This document shows, piece by piece, positions 18,797 to 62,885 of a stretch of DNA of 64,000 nucleotides. The notes beneath the pieces were generated by a model that was not told the origin of the DNA, ran no database searches, and worked only from the letters and a program-made list of their open reading frames with translations. A program made the position numbers and the translations under genes. The number at the start of each line of letters is the position of its first letter. Positions within the stretch are counted from its first letter, which is position 1. The stretch comes from Actinomycetota bacterium (GTDB taxonomy: Bacteria; Actinomycetota; CADDZG01; JAHWKV01), in NCBI GenBank assembly GCA_035759705.1, contig DASTUJ010000138.1:87-64086 (forward strand), written 5' to 3'.

Positions 18797-19936
18797 ATGC
18801 CTACTATCGAGCAAGTGCGAGAGGTTCTCGCCACCATCAACGACCCCGAGCTCCACCGCAGCATCGTGGAGCTGGGCATGGTCAAGGGTATCGAGGTCGC
18901 TCCGCCGCACGTCACGGTCGACCTGGCCCTCACCATTCCCGGATGCCCCCTCAAGTCCTTCTTCCAGGAGGTCCTGCCGGCCAAGATCCAGGCCTCCTTC
19001 CCCGAGATCACCGCAGTCACGGTCAACCTCGGGTCCATGACCGACGAGGAGCGCAAAGCTCTGGTCGGCGGGGTGAAGAGTGAAAGCCCCTCCTCTTTTG
19101 CCGGCCCGCAGTCGCGCACCACGGTGCTGGCCATTGGAAGCGGAAAGGGCGGGGTCGGCAAATCGACCCTCACCGCCAACCTCGCAGCGGCCCTGGCCAA
19201 ACGAGGTCACTCGGTCGGCCTTCTGGACGCCGACATCTGGGGATTCTCCTCCTCCCGAATGCTGGGGACCTCGGCCAAGCCGACCGTCATCGACGAGCGC
19301 CTTATCGTCCCCGTCGAGGCTTACGGCTTCAAGATGATCTCCATGGGCAACCTGGTCGAGGACGACCGCCCGGTCGTCATGCGAGGCCCCATGCTCCACA
19401 AGATCCTTCAGAGCTTCTTGTCCGACGTTCACTGGGAGGAGCCGGACTACCTCCTCATCGACATGCCCCCCGGCACCGGTGACATCTCCCTTTCTCTGTC
19501 GCAGTTCGTCCCCGGTTGTTCGATCATCCTCGTCACCACCCCCCAGCAGGCTGCCGAGAAGGTGGCCGAGAGGGCCGGGCATATGGCCGGCAAGGTTGGG
19601 ATGAAGGTGGCGGGGGTCATCGAAAACATGGCTTACGCCCTCTGCGAGCACTGCGGAGAGCGGACCTACCCGTTCGGCAGCGGCGGCGGCCAGGAGCTTG
19701 CCGAGACGTTCGGGGCGCCGCTTCTCGGCCAGATCCCGCTGGACCCACCGATGGGCGCCCTCGCCGACCACGGCAAGCCTTCGGTGATCGTCACCCCGGA
19801 GTCACCCTCGGCGAAGGCTTTCGAAGAGGTCACCGAGGCCCTGGTCAAGCTGATTCCACCCAAACCCAGAAGCCGGATGCGCAAGTCGCTCCCGCTCATC
19901 ATGAGCCCTTCGGCCGCCCCCGCCCACACCGGCTGA
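18797..19936 (+). CDS. Mrp/ApbC-family Fe-S cluster carrier ATPase with N-terminal DUF59/MIP18 domain
   Basis: Has the deviant Walker A AIGSGKGGVGKST and a CxxC (ALCEHCG). The N-terminus has the DUF59 signature (INDPELHRSIVELGMV). Confidence 0.9.
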   Translation: MPTIEQVREVLATINDPELHRSIVELGMVKGIEVAPPHVTVDLALTIPGCPLKSFFQEVLPAKIQASFPEITAVTVNLGSMTDEERKALVGGVKSESPSSFAGPQSRTTVLAIGSGKGGVGKSTLTANLAAALAKRGHSVGLLDADIWGFSSSRMLGTSAKPTVIDERLIVPVEAYGFKMISMGNLVEDDRPVVMRGPMLHKILQSFLSDVHWEEPDYLLIDMPPGTGDISLSLSQFVPGCSIILVTTPQQAAEKVAERAGHMAGKVGMKVAGVIENMAYALCEHCGERTYPFGSGGGQELAETFGAPLLGQIPLDPPMGALADHGKPSVIVTPESPSAKAFEEVTEALVKLIPPKPRSRMRKSLPLIMSPSAAPAHTG

Positions 19937-20272
19937 GGATTCCAAAAAGCCACCAGAATTCGCGCTCGGCTGGCTTCAAAAAGAACTGGCCTAATGGGGT
20001 GGCACCTTGTACGATACCGATTGTCATACGCCCCATCAGGGGTGGCAGGATGGTCGGATATGTCTCTCGCCGCGGGGAACGGCGCCAGTTTCTTGGTTTG
20101 ACGGCGTTTTATTCTTCCGATGAGGGGCAGAAACTTCCCAGAAAGGCAGGTTTGTCATTGCCGTTCGGCCTAGGATTCATATCCCACGGACGAATGGGTC
20201 GTTCTGATAGTGTTTGCTAGACTGCGGGTGGAATACCCTTTGATTCGAAATGAAACGTAAGAGGAGGTAGTA

Positions 20273-20767
20273 ATGAAGAAGCTCACGGGACTACTGCTCG
20301 TGACTGTGATAGCAGGAGCGATCTTCGCCGCTCTGGCCCTCCCGGCGTTCGCTGCTAGCAGCAACGCAGGTGGAGTTGTTGTCGAGTCCGGCGATGCACC
20401 TGACTGTGTTGGCGGAAGCTGTGGCGGCGTCATCGTCGAGGACCCGGCTGGCGTCGGCCCCGACTGCACCGGCGGCAACTGCGGCGGAAGCATCTGCCAG
20501 GGCCCCGACTGCGGCAGCTGCGCAGGCGGTAACTGCGGCGGAAGCATCAGCGGTCCGGGAACGGCCGTTGACCACGGTAAGAAGCACGACGCACCGGCCA
20601 AGGCCGCTGGCGCAAAGGCACTGCCCCGCACGGGTATCCCGACCGCAGCCACCCTGGCACTCGGCGCCGGAATGATCCTGGTTGGTCTGTTCTTCACCTT
20701 CGTCGAGCACCCCTCGACCAAGGTCGCAATGGCAGCCATGACCTACCGCCCGAAGCGTCGCCTCTAA
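20273..20767 (+). CDS. Small secreted Cys/Gly-rich protein with LPXTG-type C-terminal sorting signal
   Basis: A signal peptide (MKKLTGLLLVTVIAGAIFAALALPAFA) is followed by three DC(x)GG(S/N)CGG repeats and then LPRTG, a hydrophobic segment and a KRR tail. A strong SD (AGGAGG) is present, and an intrinsic terminator follows immediately. Confidence 0.7.
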   Translation: MKKLTGLLLVTVIAGAIFAALALPAFAASSNAGGVVVESGDAPDCVGGSCGGVIVEDPAGVGPDCTGGNCGGSICQGPDCGSCAGGNCGGSISGPGTAVDHGKKHDAPAKAAGAKALPRTGIPTAATLALGAGMILVGLFFTFVEHPSTKVAMAAMTYRPKRRL

Positions 20768-20784
20768 TACACCGATTCAACCAA

Positions 20785-20816
20785 GCAGCCCCCGGAGACG
20801 GGGGCTGCTTTTTTTG
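20785..20816 (+). terminator. Rho-independent terminator (GCAGCCCCCG-GAGA-CGGGGGCTGC followed by a T7 run)
   Basis: A perfect 10-bp GC stem with a 4-nt loop is followed by TTTTTTT, directly after the stop of the LPXTG gene. Confidence 0.75.
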
Positions 20817-20902
20817 TTGAGTGATGACCGGACATCGCTCACAATGGTTGCGCCCCGGCGGGGGCAACCTGAAGACAACAAGTTCGAGCGGTAGGGGAGA
20901 GC

Positions 20903-22471
20903 TTGGCTCAAGATCAACTGCCCGCACCAACTCCGGCAACCCGGTCGATGCGCAGCCGGGTCGTCTCGTCGTTGTTTGCTCCGCTCGACCTTGCCGCCCT
21001 TGCCTACTTCCGGATCGTGTTCGGCCTGGTGGTCTGCTGGGAGTCCTGGAGATACTTCAAGCTCGGGTGGATCGACGCCTTCTTCGTCGATCCTCCGTTC
21101 CTGTTCACCTACTGGCCGTTTCACTTCGTAGACCCGTGGCCGGGCTGGGGGATGAAGGCTCACTTCCTGGTCCTCGGCGCCGCAGGCATCCTGGTCGCCC
21201 TGGGAGCGTTCTACCGGGCGTCCGCCTCGGTGCTGTTCGTTGCGATGACGTACTTCTTCCTGCTCGACAAGGCCAACTACCTCAACCACCTCTACCTGGT
21301 CTGCCTCCTCGCTTTTCTGATGATCTTCCTGCCCGCCCACCGGACGTGGTCGGTAGACGTCCGGAGGAAGCCGTCCCTTAGGGCAGACACCGCCCCGGCC
21401 TGGACCCTGTGGCTGCTTCGCTTCCAGCTGGCGCTTCCGTACTTCTTCGGGGGCATAGCCAAGCTGAACCCCGACTGGTTAAAAGGGGAGCCGCTCAGGA
21501 TGTGGCTGGCCGAGGACGTGGACTTTCCTCTCATCGGCCGGTTCTTCACCGAGGAGCCGGTCGTCAGGCTGATGACCTACGGCGCGTTGGCGCTGGACCT
21601 GCTGGTCGTCCTCTTCCTGCTGGCGTCCCGGAAAACCCGGCCCTTCGCATACGCCGCCGCAGTCGCTTTCCACTTCATGAACTCGAGGCTGTTCAACATC
21701 GGCATCTTCCCGTGGCTGATGATCGCAGGCACGGCAATCTTCTTTCCTCCCGACACCCCCAGACGGATTCTCGAGGACCTCCGGCGCCGGCCCGGCTCGC
21801 TGCGATCGATTGCATGGTGGATTGGGATGGCCGGCGGCGCTTGGCTCGGCTGGAAGCTGCCGACGACCTTCACGCTGCCCCAGGTGGCGATAGGCGGCCT
21901 CGGAATCGCAATCCTCTGCTGGAGCCTGGCCGAGCTGTTGCGGCCCCTACCGGCCGTTCCTGTGGCCTCCGAGCCGCAGCAGGAGAACGATCGGGCGACC
22001 GGGCCGGCGCTTCGCCCGCCCCGGCCGGTGCTCGCCCTTCTGGTCCTATGGGTCGCCGTGCAGGTGTTGCTGCCTTTCAGGCACCTGGCCGTGCCCGGCA
22101 ACGTCTACTGGACCGAGGAGGGACAGCGGTTCTCATGGATGATGCTCGTTCGGTCCAAGGAGGGCCGGGTCATCTACGAGGTGACCGACGTGAGCCGGGG
22201 TCAGACGTGGGAGCTGTTCCCCGAGAACTACCTGACCCGAAGGCAATCCCTGACGCTTAGGGACAAGCCCGACATGATCGTTCAGTTCGCCCACTACATC
22301 CAGGACCGGCTCCGGGAAGACGGCTACCCGGAGGTGGAGATACGGGCAATCACCGCCATCTCGTTGAACAACAAGCCGGAGCGCCCGGTCATCGACCGGA
22401 ACGTCGACCTGACGAAGGTAAAGGTTCCCTGGTTGGGCAAAGCAGACTGGATCACGGCTGAGGAGCCCTAG
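20903..22471 (+). CDS. HTTM-domain protein (vitamin K-dependent gamma-glutamyl carboxylase-like)
   Basis: A 522-aa polytopic protein. The N-terminal HTTM signature region is LAALAYFRIVFGLVVCWESWRYF...FHFMNSRLFNIGIFPWLMIAG. The C-terminal soluble domain (YWTEEGQRFSWMMLV) is as in bacterial VKGC homologues. Confidence 0.8.
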   Translation: MAQDQLPAPTPATRSMRSRVVSSLFAPLDLAALAYFRIVFGLVVCWESWRYFKLGWIDAFFVDPPFLFTYWPFHFVDPWPGWGMKAHFLVLGAAGILVALGAFYRASASVLFVAMTYFFLLDKANYLNHLYLVCLLAFLMIFLPAHRTWSVDVRRKPSLRADTAPAWTLWLLRFQLALPYFFGGIAKLNPDWLKGEPLRMWLAEDVDFPLIGRFFTEEPVVRLMTYGALALDLLVVLFLLASRKTRPFAYAAAVAFHFMNSRLFNIGIFPWLMIAGTAIFFPPDTPRRILEDLRRRPGSLRSIAWWIGMAGGAWLGWKLPTTFTLPQVAIGGLGIAILCWSLAELLRPLPAVPVASEPQQENDRATGPALRPPRPVLALLVLWVAVQVLLPFRHLAVPGNVYWTEEGQRFSWMMLVRSKEGRVIYEVTDVSRGQTWELFPENYLTRRQSLTLRDKPDMIVQFAHYIQDRLREDGYPEVEIRAITAISLNNKPERPVIDRNVDLTKVKVPWLGKADWITAEEP

Positions 22472-22532
22472 GGCCCGGTAACTGCAGCCGGGCGTCCCCC
22501 GAGGTTATTGCTACCTGCCGGGGCCGGTCCCG

Positions 22533-23095
22533 TCAGTCGCAGCCGTCGGGGTTACGATCCTCGACGCAGACATCGCCGCTTTGTCCGCTGGAGCCGGTTG
22601 CCCCGCTTCGAGCACCGTTGCCTCCGCGGCCGCTGGTGCCGCCGTCGGCTCCGTCGGCGCCGGTGCCGCTGTCGGCATCGCCTCCGCCTCCGGCTCCGCC
22701 CTGTCCGCCGGCGCCATCGCCCCCGCTGCCTCCGCCGCCGTCCGCGCTGTCGTCCCCGGAGCTGCTGTCCGAGCTGCCGCCGGAGCCGCCTCCTCGCCCA
22801 CTGCCGCTCCGCCGGAGCCTCCGTCACCGCTGCCGCCGACCGAGGCGCCGCTGGGACCTCCCGAGCCGCCTCCACCGCCGGACCCGGAGTCGCCCCCGCT
22901 CCCGCCGCCGCCCGAGGACCCCGTGGCGCCGCTGGCGCCGGATTCGAGGATGAACTCCTGCTCGCACCCCGTGGAGTCCGGGCCCGGACCGGAGGTCTCG
23001 CAAAAGTTTTCGGCTGATGCGGTTGAGATCAACGATGCCCCGAGAAGGGCGGCCGAGATCAATGCAACGGCCAAAAGCGTTCTGCGAGTTTTCAT
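22533..23095 (-). pseudogene. Paralog A of the secreted Gly-rich Cys-loop protein family, apparently frameshifted
   Basis: The N-terminus (signal peptide plus AENFCETSGPGPDSTGCEQEFILES) is in one frame from 23095. The conserved C-terminus (GNGARSGATGSSGQSGDVCVEDRNPDGCD*) is in another frame ending at 22533. The frames switch near 22805-22825 within the GGx repeats. Confidence 0.45.
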
Positions 23096-23301
23096 CCCAT
23101 CCTCCTTGTTCCGCCGGTTCTCCGAGCGTGCCCGGTTCGGTCACGAGCCCTCGGGATCCTCTGGAGCGCCTCCTCAGGCATGGTGCTCATGGTGCGTTTG
23201 TTAAGTAGCGTTTGAACAACATACTTGAGTCGCCTATGGAGGTATAGGCAATCCGGCTAATTACATCTTGAGGATTAGAGAGACTCGCCCTACCAGGACG
23301 C

Positions 23302-23333
23302 AAAAAAGGGGCGGCCCGAAGGCCGCCCCTTTT
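23302..23333 (-). terminator. Hairpin terminator (AAAAGGGGCGGCC-CGAA-GGCCGCCCCTTTT), bidirectional-type
   Basis: A perfect 13-bp stem with A/T flanks lies 3' of paralog B. Confidence 0.7.
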
Positions 23334-23355
23334 GCCTTTTCAGGCTGAACTGCTA

Positions 23356-24021
23356 TTAGCAGTCGTTGTTGTTGTCAGCGTCTGCGCAAGCGTCGCCGGA
23401 GTCGCCGGAGTCGCCGGTGGCGCCGCTACGGGCACCGTTGCCGCCGTTACCGGAACGTCCGCCTTCGCCGCCTTCGCCGCCGTCGCCGGTGTCGGCGTCG
23501 CCGCCGTTACCTTCGCCGCCGTCGCCGCCGGTGCCGTCGCCGCCACCTGCGCCGTTGCAGCCGCCGGACTCGTCGCCGGAGCCGTCACATGCGCCGTCGC
23601 CGCCGAGGCCGCCTGCGCCGCCGCCGCCGTCGCCGCCGCCGGTGGTTGCACCGGCGTAGTCGCCGCTACCACCAGCTGCGCCGCCGCCGCCGCCTGCGCC
23701 GCCGTTGCCGCCGCCGTCGCCGCCAGCACCGCCGGCACCTGCGCCGCCGCCGCCGCCGTCGCCGCTACCGCCGGCTGCTGCGCCGGATGCTCCGCCTGCG
23801 CCGCCGTCGCCGGCTGCGCCGGACTCGCCACCGTCGCCACCAGCGCCGGACTCGCCGGTTTCGCCGGTTGCGCCGGTCTCAAGGCCGAACTCCTGGGAGC
23901 ACTCGGTTGTGTCGGGGCCCGGGCCGTTTGCGTCGCAGTTGTTCTCTGCGGCTGCGGTCGGGATGAGCAGTGCTGAAACCATGGCAAGCATCATGAGCAT
24001 GCCAAACATTTTCTTGATCAT
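23356..24021 (-). CDS. Secreted Gly/Ala/Asp-rich (PGRS-like) repeat protein with three conserved Cys pairs, paralog B
   Basis: Signal peptide MIKKMFGMLMMLAMVSALLIPTAAA, then ENNCDANGPGPDTTECSQEF, ~150 aa of GGxGGxGG repeats, a middle CDGSGDESGGC pair and a C-terminal CADADNNNDC*. The SD is GGAGG. Confidence 0.8.
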   Translation of the reverse strand: MIKKMFGMLMMLAMVSALLIPTAAAENNCDANGPGPDTTECSQEFGLETGATGETGESGAGGDGGESGAAGDGGAGGASGAAAGGSGDGGGGGAGAGGAGGDGGGNGGAGGGGGAAGGSGDYAGATTGGGDGGGGAGGLGGDGACDGSGDESGGCNGAGGGDGTGGDGGEGNGGDADTGDGGEGGEGGRSGNGGNGARSGATGDSGDSGDACADADNNNDC

Positions 24022-24270
24022 TCCTACTACCTCCTGGCTAACTGCCGTATTCGATGTGCTTCTGAATTAGCGATGTATCGAACCTGCATGGTGTTGCGGG
24101 AAGTTCAAGCTGCTCGAAATGGAATGGGCGCTACCGGCCGCCTGATAGGCGAAACCGAGCCCCTTCCACCCGATACTCGGGGACTCTATCAGTTTGGCCG
24201 GTGGGAGTGGGCGAACCCGCGAAAAAAAGTTGGGAGCCGCTCCGACGGCGTTCGAGGTATCCCGGAATAG

Positions 24271-24300
24271 AAAGAGGGGCGGCAATTGCCGCCCCTCTTT
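24271..24300 (-). terminator. Hairpin terminator (AAAGAGGGGCGGC-AATT-GCCGCCCCTCTTT)
   Basis: A perfect 13-bp stem 3' of paralog C. Confidence 0.7.
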
Positions 24301-24316
24301 GTCGAGCTTGAAGCTG

Positions 24317-24988
24317 TTAGCAGTCGTTGTTGTTGTCGGCCTCGGCACAAACGTCGCCGGAGGTGCCGGAGTCGCCGGTGCGGCCGCTGCGAGCGCCGTT
24401 GCCGCCGTTACCGGACTGACCGCCCTCGCCGCCTTCGCCGCCGTCGCCGGTGTCGGCGTCGCCGCCGTTACCTTCGCCGCCGTCGCCGCCGGTGCCGCTT
24501 CCGCCACCTGCGCCGTTGCATCCAGCGCTGGTGTCGGTTGCGCTGCCGTCACATGCGCCGTCGCCGCCTGCGCCACCTGCGCCGCCGCCGCCGTCGCCGC
24601 CGCCGGTGGTTGCACCGGAGTAAGCGCCACTGCCGCCGGCTGCTCCGCCGCCGCCGCCTGCGCCGCCGTTGCCGCCGCCGTCGCCGCCGGCACCGCCGGC
24701 ACCTGCGCCGCCGCCGCCGCCGTCGCCGCTACCGCCTGCTGCTGCGCCGCTTGCGCCGCCGTCGCCGCCGGCACCAGCGTCGCCCGAGGCTCCGCCTTCG
24801 CCGCCGTCGCCGCTTGCGCCGGTTGCGCCGGTTTCGCCGGACTCGAGCTCAAAAGCCTGCTCGCAGCCGGTCTCGTCAGCGCCGGGACCGTTTGCGTCAC
24901 AGTTGTTCTCCGCAGATGCGGTGGGAACGAGCAGTGCGGCCGACAGGGCCAGCATCAGCATCATTCCGAAGAGGTTCTTGACCTTCAT
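24317..24988 (-). CDS. Secreted PGRS-like Gly-rich Cys-pair protein, paralog C
   Basis: About 90% identical to paralog B, with the same three Cys pairs and signal peptide MKVKNLFGMMLMLALSAALLVPTASA. Confidence 0.8.
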   Translation of the reverse strand: MKVKNLFGMMLMLALSAALLVPTASAENNCDANGPGADETGCEQAFELESGETGATGASGDGGEGGASGDAGAGGDGGASGAAAGGSGDGGGGGAGAGGAGGDGGGNGGAGGGGGAAGGSGAYSGATTGGGDGGGGAGGAGGDGACDGSATDTSAGCNGAGGGSGTGGDGGEGNGGDADTGDGGEGGEGGQSGNGGNGARSGRTGDSGTSGDVCAEADNNNDC

Positions 24989-25180
24989 TTTCGGTGTCCT
25001 CCTAGAGATTCGATCGAATCAACTCCCGAAGGAGTTGGGTGGAGCGTTTGATGCGCGCTCGACGCAAGGAGAGTTAGCACCTTCCGCCGTGCATCGGGGA
25101 GTCTATCAAACCGTTCGGCCAAAAGGGCACTCGGTGAGAAAAAGTTCTTCCGAAAATTGTTGACGGCTCTTTCGAGAAAT

Positions 25181-25210
25181 AAAACGGCGGCCCCGAAGGG
25201 CCGCCGTTTG
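25181..25210 (-). terminator. Hairpin terminator (AAAACGGCGGCCC-CGAA-GGGCCGCCGTTTG)
   Basis: A 13-bp stem 3' of paralog D. Confidence 0.7.
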
Positions 25211-25227
25211 TTGCCAGGGGTTGAGCC

Positions 25228-25896
25228 TTAGCAGTTGTTGTTGTTGTCAGCGTCTGCACAAGCGTCGCCGGAGTCGCCGGAGTCGCCGCTACGGCCGCTG
25301 CGTGCGCCGTTGCCGCCGTTACCGGAACGTCCGCCTTCGCCGCCTTCGCCGCCGTCGCCGGTGTCGGCGTCGCCGCCGTTACCTTCGCCGCCGTCGCCGC
25401 CGGTGCCGTCGCCGCCTGCGCCGCCGTTGCATCCAGCGCTGGTGTCGGTTGCGCTGCCGTCACATGCGCCGTCGCCGCCTGCGCCGCCTGCGCCGCCGCC
25501 GCCGTCGCCGCCGCCGGTGGTTGCACCGGCCCAAGCGCCACTGCCGCCGGCTGCTCCGCCGCCGCCACCTGCGCCGCCGTTGCCGCCGCCGTCGCCGCCG
25601 GCACCGCCGGCACCTGCGCCGCCGCCGCCGCCGTCGCCGCTACCGCCGGCTGCTGCGCCGGATGCTCCACCTGCGCCGCCGTCGCCTGCTGCGCCGGAGT
25701 CGCCGCCTGCGCCGCCGTCACCGGTTGCGCCGGTCTCGCCGGTCTCGCCGGTGGTGAGCTCGAGCTCCTGCGAACACTCGGTGGTGTCCTCGCCCGGGCC
25801 GTTGGCGTCACAGTTGTTCTCAGCTGCTGCGGTAGGAACCAGAAGTGCGGCCGCGAGGGCCAGCATCATCAGGGTGCCCATGAGTTTCTTGATCAT
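25228..25896 (-). CDS. Secreted PGRS-like Gly-rich Cys-pair protein, paralog D
   Basis: Starts at MIKKLMGTLMMLALAAALLVPTAAA (ATG 25896). It is near-identical to B and C, and the C-terminus is CADADNNNNC*. Confidence 0.8.
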   Translation of the reverse strand: MIKKLMGTLMMLALAAALLVPTAAAENNCDANGPGEDTTECSQELELTTGETGETGATGDGGAGGDSGAAGDGGAGGASGAAAGGSGDGGGGGAGAGGAGGDGGGNGGAGGGGGAAGGSGAWAGATTGGGDGGGGAGGAGGDGACDGSATDTSAGCNGGAGGDGTGGDGGEGNGGDADTGDGGEGGEGGRSGNGGNGARSGRSGDSGDSGDACADADNNNNC

Positions 25897-26350
25897 CTGC
25901 GTGATTCCTTCCTTTGATGTTGCCTTGCTTATGCGCTGCATCCGCCTCCTGGACCTTGCCGCCAGGGGCGAAATTCTTTTGCGAGACTTCGCAACTACTG
26001 GTAAATCCCCGCCGTATCTCGATGCAAAACTTTGGTGTAGACGAAACTAGCGCCCAGTTAAATGAGCACGCCGAATGTTACCGCTCCAAACCGGCCGGTT
26101 CAAGGAATTGTTTCAGAACCCCGCTCAGCGTTCGCAGATCCTCCACCGCCGTTTCCGCGTATCGAGTTTACGGGCGTGCGGGGAGTATGTGAACGGGAGG
26201 ATCGACGGAAATCCGGCGTCTCGCAGCCGAGTTAGACTCTTAAGGCATTCGCCGAAGAGCAACAGCGGCCGGGAGACAGATTTGACGGAGAAGAATTCCA
26301 GGCGGGACGACAGGATCCTCGATCCCGAGCTCCTCAACGACGCGGCCTCG

Positions 26351-26818
26351 ATGTCCACCACCGACCTGCGCAGCCGCCGGGACGAGGTCCGTGAGCTGGA
26401 AGCGGAGTTCAGCTATGCCCGCCGCCTTCTGCAGGGCAAGATCGACATCCTGGCCGCCGAGCTGAAGCGGCGCTCGGAGGGCGGAGAGGCCGGCATGGGA
26501 GACCTGGTCAGCCGGCTGCCCTCCATCCTTGCCGACGAGCCCCGCTCCGGCGGCGCCACCCGCCTGCTGGAGTCCGATCTCCCTCGCAACGCCGGCAAGT
26601 TCCGCAGGTACACCGAGAGGCTGGCTACCGGACTGGCACACATCGAGACCTCAACCCCCGAAGAGCTCACCGCGATGGTCACCGAGCTGGGAGCCGAGGA
26701 GCGAAAGGTCTCCGAAGACCGCCGGCGGGCCCAAAAGATCATCGACGGGCTGAACGCAGAGCTGGTGAGGCGGTACCAGAAGGGTGATGAGGACCCCTCG
26801 GCTCTTTTGAGCAGCTAG
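26351..26818 (+). CDS. Hypothetical coiled-coil protein (start uncertain)
   Basis: The ORF extends from 26075, but coding-like composition and charged heptad-like repeats begin around ATG 26351 (MSTTDLRSRRDEVRELEAEF). No motif was recognised. Confidence 0.45.
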   Translation: MSTTDLRSRRDEVRELEAEFSYARRLLQGKIDILAAELKRRSEGGEAGMGDLVSRLPSILADEPRSGGATRLLESDLPRNAGKFRRYTERLATGLAHIETSTPEELTAMVTELGAEERKVSEDRRRAQKIIDGLNAELVRRYQKGDEDPSALLSS

Positions 26819-26825
26819 CGGGCCG

Positions 26826-27605
26826 GTGGAACCCAGCGCTTTTGAGGTGAACGAACCCCCCTCCCAGTCCGGCCCCCCGGCCGAGTTCGAGACGGAGACC
26901 GACTACCGGGCCGAGCTTGAACGAACCCGCTCGCAGCTCCTGGTGTTCGCCCGGGACATGAGTGCGGTTTACCAGAGGAAGCGGGAGCACGAACAAAAGC
27001 TCGGCGCCCTGCTCGAGGAGCTCCGAACCGACTACCTCTCGATTGTGGAGACCCTCGCCCTGGTGGTGGAGGCCAAGGACCAGTACACCGCCAACCACCT
27101 CGAACGGTGCAAGCGTTACGGCATCGCGCTGACCAGCCGTATCGATGCGGCGATGATCACCCCGCAGCTCCAGTACGGATTCCTCCTGCACGACGTCGGC
27201 AAGATCGGCATCCCGGAGGCGATCCTCATGAAGCCCGGACCGCTGACCTCCGAGGAGATGACCGTCATGAGAACCCACCCCTTGATCGGGGTACAGATCG
27301 TCGCCCCGATGCGCCGGGTGCTGGACGAGGTGACGGTGGAGGTCATCCGCCACCACCACGAGCGGTTCGACGGCAACGGGTACCCGGACGGCCTCAAAGG
27401 GGAGGACATCCCGCTGTCGGCCAGGATCTTCAGCGTCGTGGACAGCTTCGACGCCATGACCACGAACCGGCCCTACCGCAAGGCCCTTCCCCTGGATGAG
27501 GCTCTCACCCGCCTCAGGGCCGAAGCGGGCAAGCAGTTCGATCCCGATGTCGTGGCCGAGTTCGAGCTGCTGATGCAGAGCATCCAGTCTCCCGAGGACT
27601 GGTAA
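26826..27605 (+). CDS. HD-GYP domain c-di-GMP phosphodiesterase
   Basis: The HD motif (LLHDVGKIGIP) and GYP motif (HHERFDGNGYPDGL) are both present. The start is GTG. Confidence 0.9.
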   Translation: MEPSAFEVNEPPSQSGPPAEFETETDYRAELERTRSQLLVFARDMSAVYQRKREHEQKLGALLEELRTDYLSIVETLALVVEAKDQYTANHLERCKRYGIALTSRIDAAMITPQLQYGFLLHDVGKIGIPEAILMKPGPLTSEEMTVMRTHPLIGVQIVAPMRRVLDEVTVEVIRHHHERFDGNGYPDGLKGEDIPLSARIFSVVDSFDAMTTNRPYRKALPLDEALTRLRAEAGKQFDPDVVAEFELLMQSIQSPEDW

Positions 27606-61919: not shown

Positions 61920-62360
61920 CTACCAAAAGGAGCTCCAGGTCATCGGACCGACCTTGCCGTCGGCCGGGAGTCCCTTTTGCTGCTGGCACTGTTTGACGGC
62001 AGCTTCGGTCACCGGGCCGAACTTCCCGTCGGTTGCGAGCGGAAAACCCAGCTTGCCGAGAGCCTGTTGAATGAGGGCAACGTTCGGGTCGGGCTGGTGG
62101 GTTTGCTGGTACCGCGCCTGGCTCAGCACCGTGCCCGGATAGGGCGGGGCTCCGGATGCTCCGGCGAAGATCGCGTTCCAGGTCATCGGACCGACCTTGC
62201 CGTCGGCCGGCAGGCCTTTTTGCTGCTGGAACTGCTTGACGGCCGCCTCGGTTCCCGACCCGAACTTCCCGTCGCAGTCCACCGCCAACCCCTGTTTCGC
62301 CAGAGACTGCTGTACTAGCGCGACGTTCGGATCCGCCTGGTGGGTCTGCTGGTAGCGTTC
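61920..62360 (-). repeat. Internal ~220-bp tandem duplication encoding the two PG-binding domains
   Basis: Two about 80%-identical DNA copies: CAGGTCATCGGACCGACCTTGCCGTCGGCCGG...TGCTGCTGG...GAACTTCCCGTCG... Confidence 0.7.
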
Positions 62361-62885
62361 CTTGCTCATCACCGAGCCGGGATAGGGAAGCGAAGCGCCT
62401 TGCGAAACCGGTTGCGAGGGTGGGCTGGGGGCGCCGCCGCCCGAGAACAGCGCCGACTCCTTCTCCCGCCGTTTCGTAAGCCCGGGGAGAACCCTTCCCC
62501 CGGCTTTGTTCCACTTCATCATCTCCGAAGGGACATCGCCATACCGTCGTTCCCTCAAGGCGTTGACCAGGCCGGACTTCCTGGTCCACCCTGCGCCCAG
62601 GTTGTAGGTGAACGAGACCAGAGCGTCGAACTGGTTCTGGGTCAGCGGAACCCCGATCGAGTCGACGGATTTCGCGAACCGGTCGGAGGCCTGCTTGAGC
62701 ATCTCGAGCCCCCGTTCACGGCTGATTCCCCGCCGGAACTCCTCCGGCTCACTCCCGTTGATGCAGCCCATGTGAACAAGGGTTCCAAACCCTATGGTGC
62801 AGTTGTTGGCTGCATCGTTGTAGAGATTCGGACGGAACCCCTCGAACTCTGCGATCAGCTGCGCTCCGGCATCCGAAAGCCTCAT
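61920..62885 (-). CDS. GH24 phage-type lysozyme fused to two peptidoglycan-binding (PG_binding_1) domains
   Basis: The N-terminus (IAEFEGFRPNLYNDAANNCTIGFGTLVHMG...FDALVSFTYNLGAG) is a T4/lambda-type lysozyme fold with a catalytic Glu. The C-terminus has two about 70-aa repeats (LPADGKVGPMTW). Confidence 0.8.
   Translation of the reverse strand: MRLSDAGAQLIAEFEGFRPNLYNDAANNCTIGFGTLVHMGCINGSEPEEFRRGISRERGLEMLKQASDRFAKSVDSIGVPLTQNQFDALVSFTYNLGAGWTRKSGLVNALRERRYGDVPSEMMKWNKAGGRVLPGLTKRREKESALFSGGGAPSPPSQPVSQGASLPYPGSVMSKERYQQTHQADPNVALVQQSLAKQGLAVDCDGKFGSGTEAAVKQFQQQKGLPADGKVGPMTWNAIFAGASGAPPYPGTVLSQARYQQTHQPDPNVALIQQALGKLGFPLATDGKFGPVTEAAVKQCQQQKGLPADGKVGPMTWSSFW

What the first reader, a model, noticed from the sequence alone, without database searches (positions are those of the whole stretch)
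20273..25945. HTTM (vitamin-K-dependent gamma-carboxylase-like) membrane enzyme embedded among secreted Cys-pair / Gly-rich proteins: a candidate enzyme-substrate system
An HTTM-domain protein (20903-22471) sits between a secreted DCxGGxCGG-repeat LPXTG protein and a tandem array of four paralogous secreted proteins. Each paralog has an about 150-aa PGRS-like (GGxGGx, Asp/Asn-containing) repeat bracketed by three conserved Cys pairs (Cx9C, Cx9C, Cx8C). HTTM is the catalytic fold of the eukaryotic Glu gamma-carboxylase, and bacterial homologues have no established substrates. Co-location with secreted, acidic, Gly-rich, disulfide-looped proteins suggests a dedicated modification (for example Glu to Gla, giving Ca2+-binding beta-roll/PGRS-like fibres or surface proteins). 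I am not aware of such a gene neighbourhood being described.
Basis: partly seen in the sequence, partly recalled or inferred. Interest (0 to 1): 0.85.

Follow-up and report, generated by a model that had tools for sequence, protein, structure and literature searches.

The report
Bacterial vitamin-K-carboxylase homologue beside glycine-rich secreted proteins
An uncultured soil actinobacterium carries a membrane enzyme related to the human vitamin-K-dependent carboxylase, with its catalytic residues intact, next to genes for unusual acidic, glycine-rich secreted proteins; the pairing is real and conserved in close relatives, but it does not show that the enzyme modifies these proteins.

Summary
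20903-22471(+) encodes a full-length VKGC-type protein (HTTM 1e-84, VKGC lumenal domain 2e-41). Upstream is an LPRTG-anchored protein with eight Cys. Downstream, on the opposite strand, are four Gly-rich secreted genes. Three details are wrong:
- Paralog A is a shorter subtype and is frameshifted.
- Only B-D have three Cys pairs.
- The Cys spacings are Cx11C, Cx9/10C and Cx8C.

The enzyme keeps the residues for quinol activation, CO2 trapping and carboxylate binding. It lacks Tyr395 and the propeptide-binding site.

The enzyme/Gly-rich adjacency holds in every relative with 58-90% identical enzymes and enough flanking DNA. That covers about nine lineages and two gene orders, one co-directional with a duplicated enzyme.

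Against a link:
- 80 genomes with 39-51% identical enzymes have no Gly-rich neighbours, no conserved neighbour, and no excess of secreted neighbours.
- The Gly-rich family also occurs at six or more loci without the enzyme.
- In the window every structural gene has its own terminator.

The Gly-rich proteins are a rare, undescribed (GGX)n family with an unresolved fold.

My estimate is about 0.3 that the enzyme modifies its neighbours. More likely it works independently beside a lineage-specific family of surface proteins. Interest is moderate and the idea is testable.

The parts
20273..20767 (+). LPRTG-anchored surface protein of 164 aa. It has a signal peptide, three PDCxGGxCGG-type units (8 Cys in four Cx4C pairs), LPRTG, a hydrophobic segment and a KRRL tail. 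A strong GAGGAGG ribosome-binding site precedes it.
   Evidence: The Pfam Gram_pos_anchor match is sub-threshold. Identity to orthologues is 84-94% aa with pN/pS 0.10-0.18, close to the conserved neighbouring Mrp gene (87-94% aa, pN/pS 0.08). No PDB relative was found.
20783..20810 (+). Intrinsic terminator after the LPXTG gene (12-bp stem followed by a T-run). It separates that gene from the HTTM gene.
   Evidence: The hairpin is conserved in five orthologous loci, with a compensatory stem change in L091. The only Rfam match here is a chance-level sRNA hit on the hairpin.
20903..22471 (+). VKGC-type membrane enzyme of 522 aa from a TTG start, with an HTTM domain and a VKGC lumenal domain. An ATG at 20948 is an alternative start. 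About 8 hydrophobic segments are predicted. The residues for quinol activation, CO2 trapping and carboxylate binding are intact.
   Evidence: NCBIfam SdpB scores far below its cut-off.
22533..23095 (-). Gly-rich paralog A, short subtype, about 187 aa if intact, with two Cys loops (Cx11C and Cx8C). It is frameshifted near 22795-22823. The ORF as listed is 22511-23095, and the true C-terminal half is in another frame at 22533-22823.
   Evidence: Intact orthologues are L001 9560-10117 (185 aa), the 190-aa L085 gene and the 191-aa L197 gene.
23356..24021 (-). Gly-rich paralog B, 221 aa. It has a signal peptide cleaved after AAA, then Cx11C, a (GGX)n domain with the core motif GGSGDYAGATTGGG, Cx9C and Cx8C.
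23308..23329 (-). Intrinsic terminator hairpin downstream of paralog B.
24317..24988 (-). Gly-rich paralog C, 223 aa, with Cx11C, Cx10C and Cx8C.
24274..24297 (-). Intrinsic terminator hairpin downstream of paralog C.
25228..25896 (-). Gly-rich paralog D, 222 aa from the MIKKLMG start. The ORF is open up to 25941.
   Evidence: A close orthologue in L137 lies next to RsiG/HD genes that are 92-97% identical to those of the window.
25182..25209 (-). Intrinsic terminator downstream of paralog D (12-bp stem).

Best explanation
This is a lineage-specific cell-surface gene neighbourhood in an uncultured soil Actinomycetota. Its two components most likely work independently.

(a) The HTTM protein is a genuine member of the widespread bacterial VKGC-type family. 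By homology, it is a polytopic membrane enzyme whose active site faces outside the cytoplasmic membrane. A lysine (Lys187, equivalent to human Lys218) would deprotonate reduced menaquinone. Oxygenation to the epoxide would then generate a strong base. That base would deprotonate a carboxylate-bearing substrate held by Asn128/His129, and the substrate would be carboxylated with CO2 trapped on Phe269. Conservation of these residues is shown here. The chemistry and the substrate are inferred. The same active site and the same invariant WTEEG motif occur in hundreds of genomes that lack any Gly-rich neighbour. The natural substrate is therefore probably something common to those organisms, not these proteins.

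(b) The four minus-strand genes belong to a rare, undescribed family of Sec-exported, very acidic (GGX)n proteins stapled by disulfide loops. In the window, paralogs B, C and D each have a strong ribosome-binding site and their own terminator, and they have duplicated recently. Family members are scattered over several loci per genome. Some are fused to Ig-like adhesin repeats or carry cell-wall anchors. They are most likely structural surface or matrix proteins, as is the sortase-anchored Cys-rich protein upstream.

On this reading the adjacency is inherited synteny rather than an operon.
For: The enzyme belongs to the family and keeps its active site.

The wider family shows no partner:
- 592 relatives were confirmed in one scan of species-representative genomes.
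- The best 80 (39-51% identity, many phyla) have no ORF with at least 30% Gly within 10 kb.
- They share no neighbour family. The best candidate is generic response regulators, in 11 of 84 loci.
- Small signal-peptide proteins are not enriched next to the enzyme (3% against 5% background).
- L198 and L199, at 50-51% identity, also lack Gly-rich genes.

Gly-rich genes occur away from HTTM:
- L153 has 6.2 and 2.8 kb of flank without it.
- In L108 the gene lies next to a CcdA-like gene.
- L122 and L168 have two copies near rpoB.
- L196 has 10 kb of unrelated genes upstream.
- L134 has Gly-rich genes, a GT2 gene and the LPXTG gene, with no HTTM in between.

The window genes are separate transcription units. 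The orientation is convergent, and the LPXTG gene and paralogs B, C and D each have a strong terminator.

In most relatives the whole region is syntenic (GlnR, NifU, Mrp, LPXTG, HTTM, Gly-rich, RsiG, HD). Adjacency there carries little independent weight.

The family is modular. P0129 combines Ig-like repeats with the Gly-rich domain, and P0133 has an LKTTG anchor.
Against: - The gene immediately downstream of HTTM is a short-type Gly-rich gene in every clade member with enough flank, about nine lineages.
- This includes L090 and L003. There the flanking genes differ and the Gly-rich genes are co-directional with HTTM, with gaps of 9-290 bp.
- L090 has two tandem HTTM paralogs bracketed by Gly-rich genes.
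- The neighbours are exported and 15% Asp+Glu. These are the only residue types that VKGC-type enzymes are known to carboxylate.
- HTTM proteins SdpB and YitO are needed to mature co-encoded secreted proteins (PMC6818787).
Confidence: 0.5

Rival explanations
1. One reading: a dedicated enzyme-substrate system. As the LPXTG and/or Gly-rich proteins emerge unfolded from the Sec channel, the VKGC-type enzyme uses menaquinol, O2 and CO2 to carboxylate Glu (or Asp) residues. This would create high-affinity Ca2+ sites that organise the acidic (GGX)n domains on the cell surface.
For: - The active site is intact and predicted to face outward.
- HTTM is always followed by a Gly-rich gene across 58-90% identity and two gene orders. 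One of these is co-directional and carries an HTTM tandem duplication.
- The candidate substrates are exported and very acidic: 15% Asp+Glu, 1-2% Lys+Arg.
- The segments after the first Cys loop (EFELESGETG) and in the LPXTG protein (VVVE, VIVE) place Glu after a hydrophobic residue. Human GGCX prefers this arrangement (PMC12647623).
- A highly expressed structural gene followed by a conserved terminator and then an enzyme gene resembles precursor/modifying-enzyme layouts. This last point is inference.
- Precedents are MloH (PMC12647623) and SdpB/YitO (PMC6818787).
Against: - There is no association outside the clade and no enrichment of secreted neighbours family-wide.
- Gly-rich genes occur at six or more loci without HTTM.
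- The transcription units in the window are convergent and separately terminated.
- Tyr395, which stacks on the residue before the target Glu, is Gln or His here. Leu394 is Gly and His404 is Arg.
- The propeptide-binding residues are polar or variable.
- No propeptide-like or Gla-like motif is present, and Pfam finds nothing in the paralogs.
Confidence: 0.3
2. A looser functional module. HTTM acts in the same envelope-building process without carboxylating these proteins. It could help process or export them, as SdpB does for SdpC. It could instead modify a lipid or glycan to which the surface proteins attach, or supply quinone-linked redox chemistry for their many disulfides.
For: - Adjacency is conserved in the clade.
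- All the neighbours are Cys-loop proteins that need extracytoplasmic disulfide formation.
- DCC1-type thiol-disulfide oxidoreductase genes lie next to, or are fused with, HTTM in other lineages.
- A GT2 glycosyltransferase gene lies beside Gly-rich genes in L090 and L134.
- Viral VKGC-like epoxidases have been proposed to drive lipid desaturation (PMC13486548).
Against: - The two GT2 genes are not detectably homologous to each other.
- No VKOR, DsbA or sortase was found among the window proteins tested.
- The match to the SdpB model is far below its cut-off (21.7 against 178.4 bits).
- Nothing here is specific to this reading.
Confidence: 0.15
3. The Gly-rich ORFs are not real genes. They would be frame artefacts of GC-rich repetitive DNA.
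For: Every frame of this GC-rich repeat is open, and paralog A contains a frameshift.
Against: - The ORFs have signal peptides, strong ribosome-binding sites and individual terminators.
- Cys positions and register are conserved across 20 non-redundant members from many samples.
- pN/pS is 0.34-0.46 in this frame.
Confidence: 0.02

Closest known systems
[quoted passage not shown]
   Same: It has the same two-domain architecture (HTTM plus lumenal domain). Asn159, His160, Lys218, Trp223, Asp263, Phe286, Asn290, Phe299, Trp399 and Met401 are all conserved.
   Different: The protein is about 230 residues shorter. Leu394, Tyr395 and His404 are Gly, Gln/His and Arg. The propeptide-binding residues (Tyr415, Leu426, Val430, Phe431) are not conserved. 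No Gla-domain substrates are present.
Bacterial VKGC orthologues: MloH of malonomycin biosynthesis, and the Leptospira orthologue
   Same: These are bacterial members of the same family. MloH shows that bacterial members can carboxylate a carboxylate-bearing residue (Asp) (PMC12647623, PMC12186529). From my own knowledge (Rishavy et al. 2005, J Biol Chem, not read here), the Leptospira enzyme has epoxidase activity but no detectable Glu carboxylase activity. PMC4555120 mentions only that the gene exists.
   Different: MloH sits in a PKS-NRPS cluster and acts on a small-molecule intermediate. Here there is no biosynthetic cluster, and the neighbours are ribosomal, Sec-exported proteins.
SdpABC / YitPOM of Bacillus subtilis
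   Same: An HTTM-family membrane protein is encoded beside a signal-peptide-bearing, disulfide-containing secreted protein and is needed for its maturation (PMC6818787).
   Different: SdpB lacks the VKGC lumenal domain. The window protein scores far below the SdpB family cut-off. There is no SdpA-like gene. The neighbours are not hydrophobic toxin precursors.
PE_PGRS proteins of mycobacteria
   Same: They share long GGX-type glycine repeats with Asp/Asn/Ala/Ser at the third position, an actinobacterial origin and multigene expansion.
   Different: There is no PE domain and no ESX secretion. These proteins have a Sec signal peptide instead, plus disulfide loops. They are much shorter, strongly acidic and have a highly conserved register.
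Polyglycine-II helix bundle proteins (snow-flea antifreeze protein, phage S16 gp38 adhesin). This comparison is from my own knowledge.
   Same: They share a three-residue glycine periodicity, near absence of hydrophobic residues, and disulfide staples.
   Different: There is no sequence similarity to any PDB chain. AlphaFold2 gave no confident fold (pLDDT 42 and 50.5).

Membership tests
VKGC / HTTM family (Pfam PF05090 + PF22777) | HTTM domain and VKGC lumenal domain both score above the Pfam gathering thresholds | tested here: met
   284.6 and 142.2 bits against cut-offs of 27.7. phmmer to human GGCX gives E 4.6e-40.
VKGC / HTTM family | Catalytic base Lys218 with Trp223 and Asp263 (quinol deprotonation site) | tested here: met
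   These correspond to Lys187, Trp192 and Asp232. They are invariant in 19 diverse homologues and in all 8 clade members. Their roles are taken from PMC12647623.
VKGC / HTTM family | CO2 pocket (Phe299) and substrate carboxylate binding (Asn159/His160) | tested here: met
   These correspond to Phe269 and Asn128/His129, and are invariant.
Animal-type protein Glu carboxylase (GGCX in the strict sense) | Glu-binding segment 393-404 with Leu394, Tyr395 and His404 | tested here: not met
   The residues are Gly, Gln (His in two members) and Arg. Trp399 and Met401 are kept. The bacterial clade has an invariant WTEEG motif instead.
Animal-type protein Glu carboxylase (GGCX in the strict sense) | Hydrophobic propeptide-binding site (Tyr415, Leu426, Val430, Phe431) | tested here: not met
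   The window protein has Val, Glu, Thr and Arg, and these positions vary among clade members.
Animal-type protein Glu carboxylase (GGCX in the strict sense) | Epoxidase and carboxylase activity, with a VKOR-type recycling partner | not testable with these tools
   Activity needs biochemistry. No VKOR, DsbA or DsbB was found among 10 window proteins scanned. The rest of the genome is not available.
Vitamin-K-dependent (Gla) substrate proteins | Gla domain, or a propeptide with Phe(-16), Ala(-10), Leu(-6) | tested here: not met
   Pfam finds nothing in the four paralogs, and only a sub-threshold anchor match in the LPXTG protein. No such motif is visible after the signal peptides in the family alignment.
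SdpB family (NCBIfam TIGR04033) | Score above the family cut-off | tested here: not met
   21.7 bits against a cut-off of 178.4.
PE_PGRS | N-terminal PE domain, with secretion by ESX | tested here: not met
   There is no Pfam PE hit. The N-terminus is a classical Sec signal peptide with an AxA cleavage site.
RTX beta-roll Ca-binding repeats | Nonapeptide GGxGxDxUx with a hydrophobic position and period 9 | tested here: not met
   Gly autocorrelation peaks at lags 3 and 6 and is about 0 at lag 9. Hydrophobic residues make up 2%. There is no Pfam HemolysinCabind hit.
Polyglycine-II bundle proteins | Period-3 Gly repeats that fold into packed PGII helices | tested here: inconclusive
   Period 3 is present. 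The AlphaFold2 models have low confidence (pLDDT 42.2 from a single sequence, 50.5 with a 16-sequence alignment), so no fold search was run.
Sortase (LPXTG) substrates | LPXTG, a hydrophobic segment and a basic tail at the C-terminus, with a sortase in the genome | tested here: inconclusive
   LPRTG, a 22-residue hydrophobic stretch and ...RPKRRL are present and conserved in orthologues. The Pfam anchor model scores 15.1 against a cut-off of 20. The tail is unusually long, at about 21 aa. No sortase gene was seen in the parts of the window examined.

The most novel reading that the evidence does not exclude
This would be the first natural protein substrates of a bacterial vitamin-K-dependent carboxylase. 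A menaquinone-dependent VKGC homologue would carboxylate Glu/Asp on Sec-exported (GGX)n and LPXTG surface proteins of an actinobacterium. That would imply a bacterial equivalent of Gla-dependent Ca2+ binding, and that protein carboxylation predates animals.
Probability: 0.2. Interest if true: 0.85.

Novelty: new variant of a known kind. Interest (0 to 1): 0.5.

Why it matters
VKGC-type enzymes are common in bacteria. One search here found more than 1,800 relatives, and one scan of species-representative genomes found 592 loci. Their function is known for only one natural-product enzyme, MloH. A conserved pairing with exported, extremely acidic proteins gives a concrete and inexpensive experiment for testing whether bacteria carry out vitamin-K-dependent protein carboxylation.

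Separately, the Gly-rich proteins are an essentially undescribed domain family. They have no Pfam model and only 21 hits among 1.84 billion representative proteins. Their repeat register is unusually exact and they carry disulfide staples, which makes them candidates for a new polyglycine-type fold or a hydrated, cation-binding surface matrix.

The negative results also matter. Across the wider enzyme family there is no conserved partner. Any substrate assignment made from this locus should therefore not be extended to other bacterial VKGC homologues.

Tried and rejected
1. Word-indexed homology searches with paralog C gave 1 hit. A spliced alignment of the N-terminus and the core gave 3 hits. 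Low-complexity words swamp the candidate list, so neither search was useful for co-occurrence. I used a specific DNA pattern for the core motif instead and an exhaustive HMM search.

2. AlphaFold2 on paralog C gave pLDDT 42 from a single sequence and 50.5 with a 16-sequence alignment. Both are unreliable, so no fold search was run.

3. A PDB sequence search found nothing for the Gly-rich or LPXTG proteins.

4. An Rfam scan of 19900-26300 found only a chance-level hit on the terminator.

5. A GT2 glycosyltransferase as a recurrent partner was rejected. The GT2 genes of L134 and L090 are not detectably homologous, and the window has none.

6. An RTX or beta-roll reading was rejected on periodicity and composition.

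7. The idea that the LPXTG protein is far more conserved than its surroundings was softened. It is about as conserved as the neighbouring Mrp gene, while HTTM and NifU evolve faster.

8. P0121's contig (L084) has no HTTM within 6.5 kb upstream but ends 400 bp downstream of the gene, so it is uninformative.

Full report
WHAT IS IN THE WINDOW

The window is GC-rich chromosomal DNA (63-70% GC). The closest public relatives of the locus are from uncultured soil Actinomycetota.

Between a conserved Mrp/NifU/GlnR block and an RsiG/HD block lie six genes:

- 20273-20767(+) encodes a 164-aa protein. It has a signal peptide and three PDCxGGxCGG-type units with eight Cys. It ends in LPRTG, a hydrophobic stretch and RPKRRL.
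- A 12-bp-stem terminator follows at 20783-20810.
- 20903-22471(+) encodes a 522-aa protein. It matches Pfam HTTM (1.1e-84) and the VKGC lumenal domain (1.6e-41), and human GGCX in the PDB (4.6e-40).
- Four Gly-rich genes follow on the opposite strand, convergent with HTTM: A (22511-23095), B (23356-24021), C (24317-24988) and D (25228-25941).

B, C and D are 75-87% identical to one another. Each has a Sec signal peptide ending in AxA, followed by a Cx11C loop and a short segment of alternating acidic and hydrophobic residues (EFELES). Then come about 150 residues of GGX repeats, interrupted by a Cx9/10C loop, and a terminal Cx8C loop. Each has a strong ribosome-binding site and its own terminator hairpin.

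Paralog A is a shorter subtype and is frameshifted near 22795-22823. The other frame continues to ...SGDVCVEDRNPDGCD* at 22533. This matches intact 185-191-aa orthologues elsewhere. I cannot tell whether the frameshift is a real pseudogene or an assembly error.

THE ENZYME

The alignment to human GGCX was projected on 19 diverse homologues and on the eight members of the close clade.

These residues are conserved throughout:
- the general base Lys218, its stacking partner Trp223, and Asp263;
- the naphthoquinone contact Phe286 and the catalytic-centre residue Asn290;
- the CO2-stacking Phe299;
- the pair that binds the substrate carboxylate, Asn159/His160;
- Trp399 and Met401.

The roles of these residues are taken from PMC12647623 and PMC13486548.

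These residues are not conserved:
- Leu394 (Gly);
- Tyr395, which anchors the dipeptide around the target Glu (Gln or His);
- His404 (Arg);
- the hydrophobic propeptide-binding site, Tyr415/Leu426/Val430/Phe431 (Val/Glu/Thr/Arg, and variable).

The bacterial clade has an invariant WTEEG motif where animals have WTNGLY.

The protein is therefore a true family member that can plausibly carry out the quinol, O2 and CO2 chemistry. It cannot recognise substrates the way the animal enzyme does.

By homology its active site lies outside the cytoplasmic membrane. A simple hydropathy scan finds about eight hydrophobic segments, with the C-terminal 130-residue domain after the last one.

Bacterial precedent exists. 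MloH carboxylates an aspartyl residue in malonomycin biosynthesis (PMC12647623, PMC12186529).

THE GLY-RICH PROTEINS

No Pfam, NCBIfam or PDB relative was found.

A DNA pattern for the core motif (G.G[AD][YW].GAT.GGG) is absent from shuffled sequence and from about 1.3 Mb of unrelated loci. In metagenomes it recovered about 14 genuine loci, often as tandem arrays.

An alignment of 20 non-redundant members shows an exact register and invariant motifs:
- GGSGDGG;
- GGGGGAAGGSGA[YW]AGATTGGGDGGGG;
- the central CDGS...GC loop.

Composition and selection:
- The mature proteins are 44% Gly, 15% Asp+Glu, 1-2% Lys+Arg and 2% hydrophobic.
- Gly autocorrelation peaks at lags 3 and 6.
- pN/pS is 0.34-0.46, so the genes are real and under constraint.

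An exhaustive profile search of 1.84 billion representative proteins found only 21 hits, and most are fragments at contig ends. One hit (P0129) has the domain at the C-terminus of a 643-aa protein with Ig-like repeats. Another (P0133) carries an LKTTG-type anchor.

AlphaFold2 gave no confident fold. A polyglycine-II type structure fits the period-3 repeat and the absence of a hydrophobic core, but it is not shown.

IS THE PAIRING MORE THAN AN ACCIDENT?

For a link:
- Every relative with a 58-90% identical enzyme and enough flank has a short-type Gly-rich gene immediately after HTTM. Most also have the LPXTG gene immediately before it. These are L001/L002, the P0002 contig, L085-L088, L089, L091 and L197.
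- In those contigs the whole region from GlnR to RsiG is syntenic, so they are not independent observations.
- L090 and L003 are more informative, because their flanking genes differ.
- L090 reads Gly-rich, Gly-rich, HTTM, a second HTTM paralog, Gly-rich. All are on one strand, with gaps of 9-230 bp.
- L003 reads HTTM then Gly-rich on one strand.
- Adjacency has thus survived rearrangement and an inversion.

Against a link:
- The 80 best HTTM loci from species-representative genomes (39-51% identity, many phyla) contain no ORF with at least 30% Gly within 10 kb.
- They share no neighbour family.
- Small signal-peptide proteins are not enriched next to HTTM in them.
- Two further loci at 50-51% identity also lack Gly-rich genes.
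- Gly-rich genes occur without HTTM in L153, L108, L122/L168, L196 and L134. In L134 the LPXTG gene and Gly-rich genes flank a GT2 gene instead.
- In the window itself, the LPXTG gene and paralogs B, C and D end in their own terminators. The terminator between the LPXTG gene and HTTM is conserved in five loci, with a compensatory stem change in one.

WEIGHING THE EVIDENCE

I started from a low prior for convergent, separately terminated neighbours. I raised it for adjacency that survives rearrangement, for the L090 arrangement, and for the match of cellular compartment and chemistry. I lowered it for the family-wide absence of a partner and for the dispersed Gly-rich copies.

My resulting subjective estimates, not calculated values, are:
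- about 0.3 that the enzyme directly modifies these proteins;
- about 0.15 for a looser shared role in building the envelope;
- about 0.5 that the enzyme acts on something else, and the neighbourhood is inherited synteny next to an expanding surface-protein family.

COMPARISON WITH KNOWN SYSTEMS

The enzyme is a new member of the bacterial VKGC family.

The neighbourhood is not described in the literature I could search.

The nearest functional precedents are SdpB/YitO, which are HTTM proteins required to mature co-encoded secreted proteins (PMC6818787), and MloH.

The Gly-rich proteins resemble PGRS repeats in composition. They differ in export route, size, charge and disulfide loops.

VERDICT

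Interest is moderate (0.5). It would be high only if the modification is demonstrated.

Noticed in passing
window 22533-23095 (-): Paralog A is split by a 1-nt frameshift near 22795-22823. The C-terminal half, which holds the second Cys loop, lies in another frame. P0136, a homologue from another assembly, also shows an internal out-of-frame stretch. These GC-rich repeats may therefore be prone to sequencing or assembly errors.
   Followed up: partly
L090 1317-4460: Two HTTM/VKGC genes lie in tandem, 9 bp apart. They are 61% and 43% identical to the window enzyme. Both keep all catalytic residues, and Gly-rich genes bracket them on the same strand.
   Followed up: partly
L013 7796-8653 and L024 9383-10267: In two related Planctomycetota MAGs, the gene next to HTTM encodes a secreted protein with DDDD, about 24 copies of SGK, DDDD, and a Cys-rich C-terminal domain. 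This is another tripeptide-repeat secreted protein beside a VKGC homologue. It may be coincidence.
   Followed up: no
L014 9501-9926; L198 5611-5874; protein P0115: DCC1-like (DUF393) thiol-disulfide oxidoreductase genes sit directly upstream of HTTM in several distant lineages. In P0115 the domain is fused to HTTM. This could be a redox partner for the wider family.
   Followed up: no
proteins P0129 and P0133: The Gly-rich domain also occurs at the C-terminus of a 643-aa protein with Ig-like repeats, and in a protein with an LKTTG-type anchor. It therefore behaves as a modular surface domain.
   Followed up: no
window 20273-20767 and orthologues: The LPXTG Cys-rich protein is about as conserved as the neighbouring Mrp protein (84-94% aa, pN/pS 0.10-0.18), while HTTM is only 58-72% identical. 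Synonymous divergence in the LPXTG and Gly-rich genes (pS 0.21-0.38) is lower than in HTTM and Mrp (0.52-0.56).
   Followed up: partly
L122 757-5482 and L168 3237-7962: Two Gly-rich genes flank an epimerase-like gene and a membrane protein that may be a glycosyl-phosphate transferase, close to rpoB. These gene identities are read from the sequence, not from a domain search. The arrangement places the family in a cell-wall or polysaccharide context without HTTM.
   Followed up: no
window 26075-27605: An RsiG-like protein (PF22802) and an HD-domain protein (HD_5) lie directly beside the Gly-rich array. This junction is conserved in L001, L137, L123 and L116.
   Followed up: no
window 61920-62885 (-): This gene encodes a protein with a phage-lysozyme domain and two peptidoglycan-binding domains, within an otherwise housekeeping region (nuo genes).
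   Followed up: no
L004 5510-5767: A long poly-G-coding run is probably an assembly artefact. The MAG is labelled Enterobacteriaceae, yet it carries the best GTDB match to this actinobacterial enzyme. The bin label looks unreliable.
   Followed up: no
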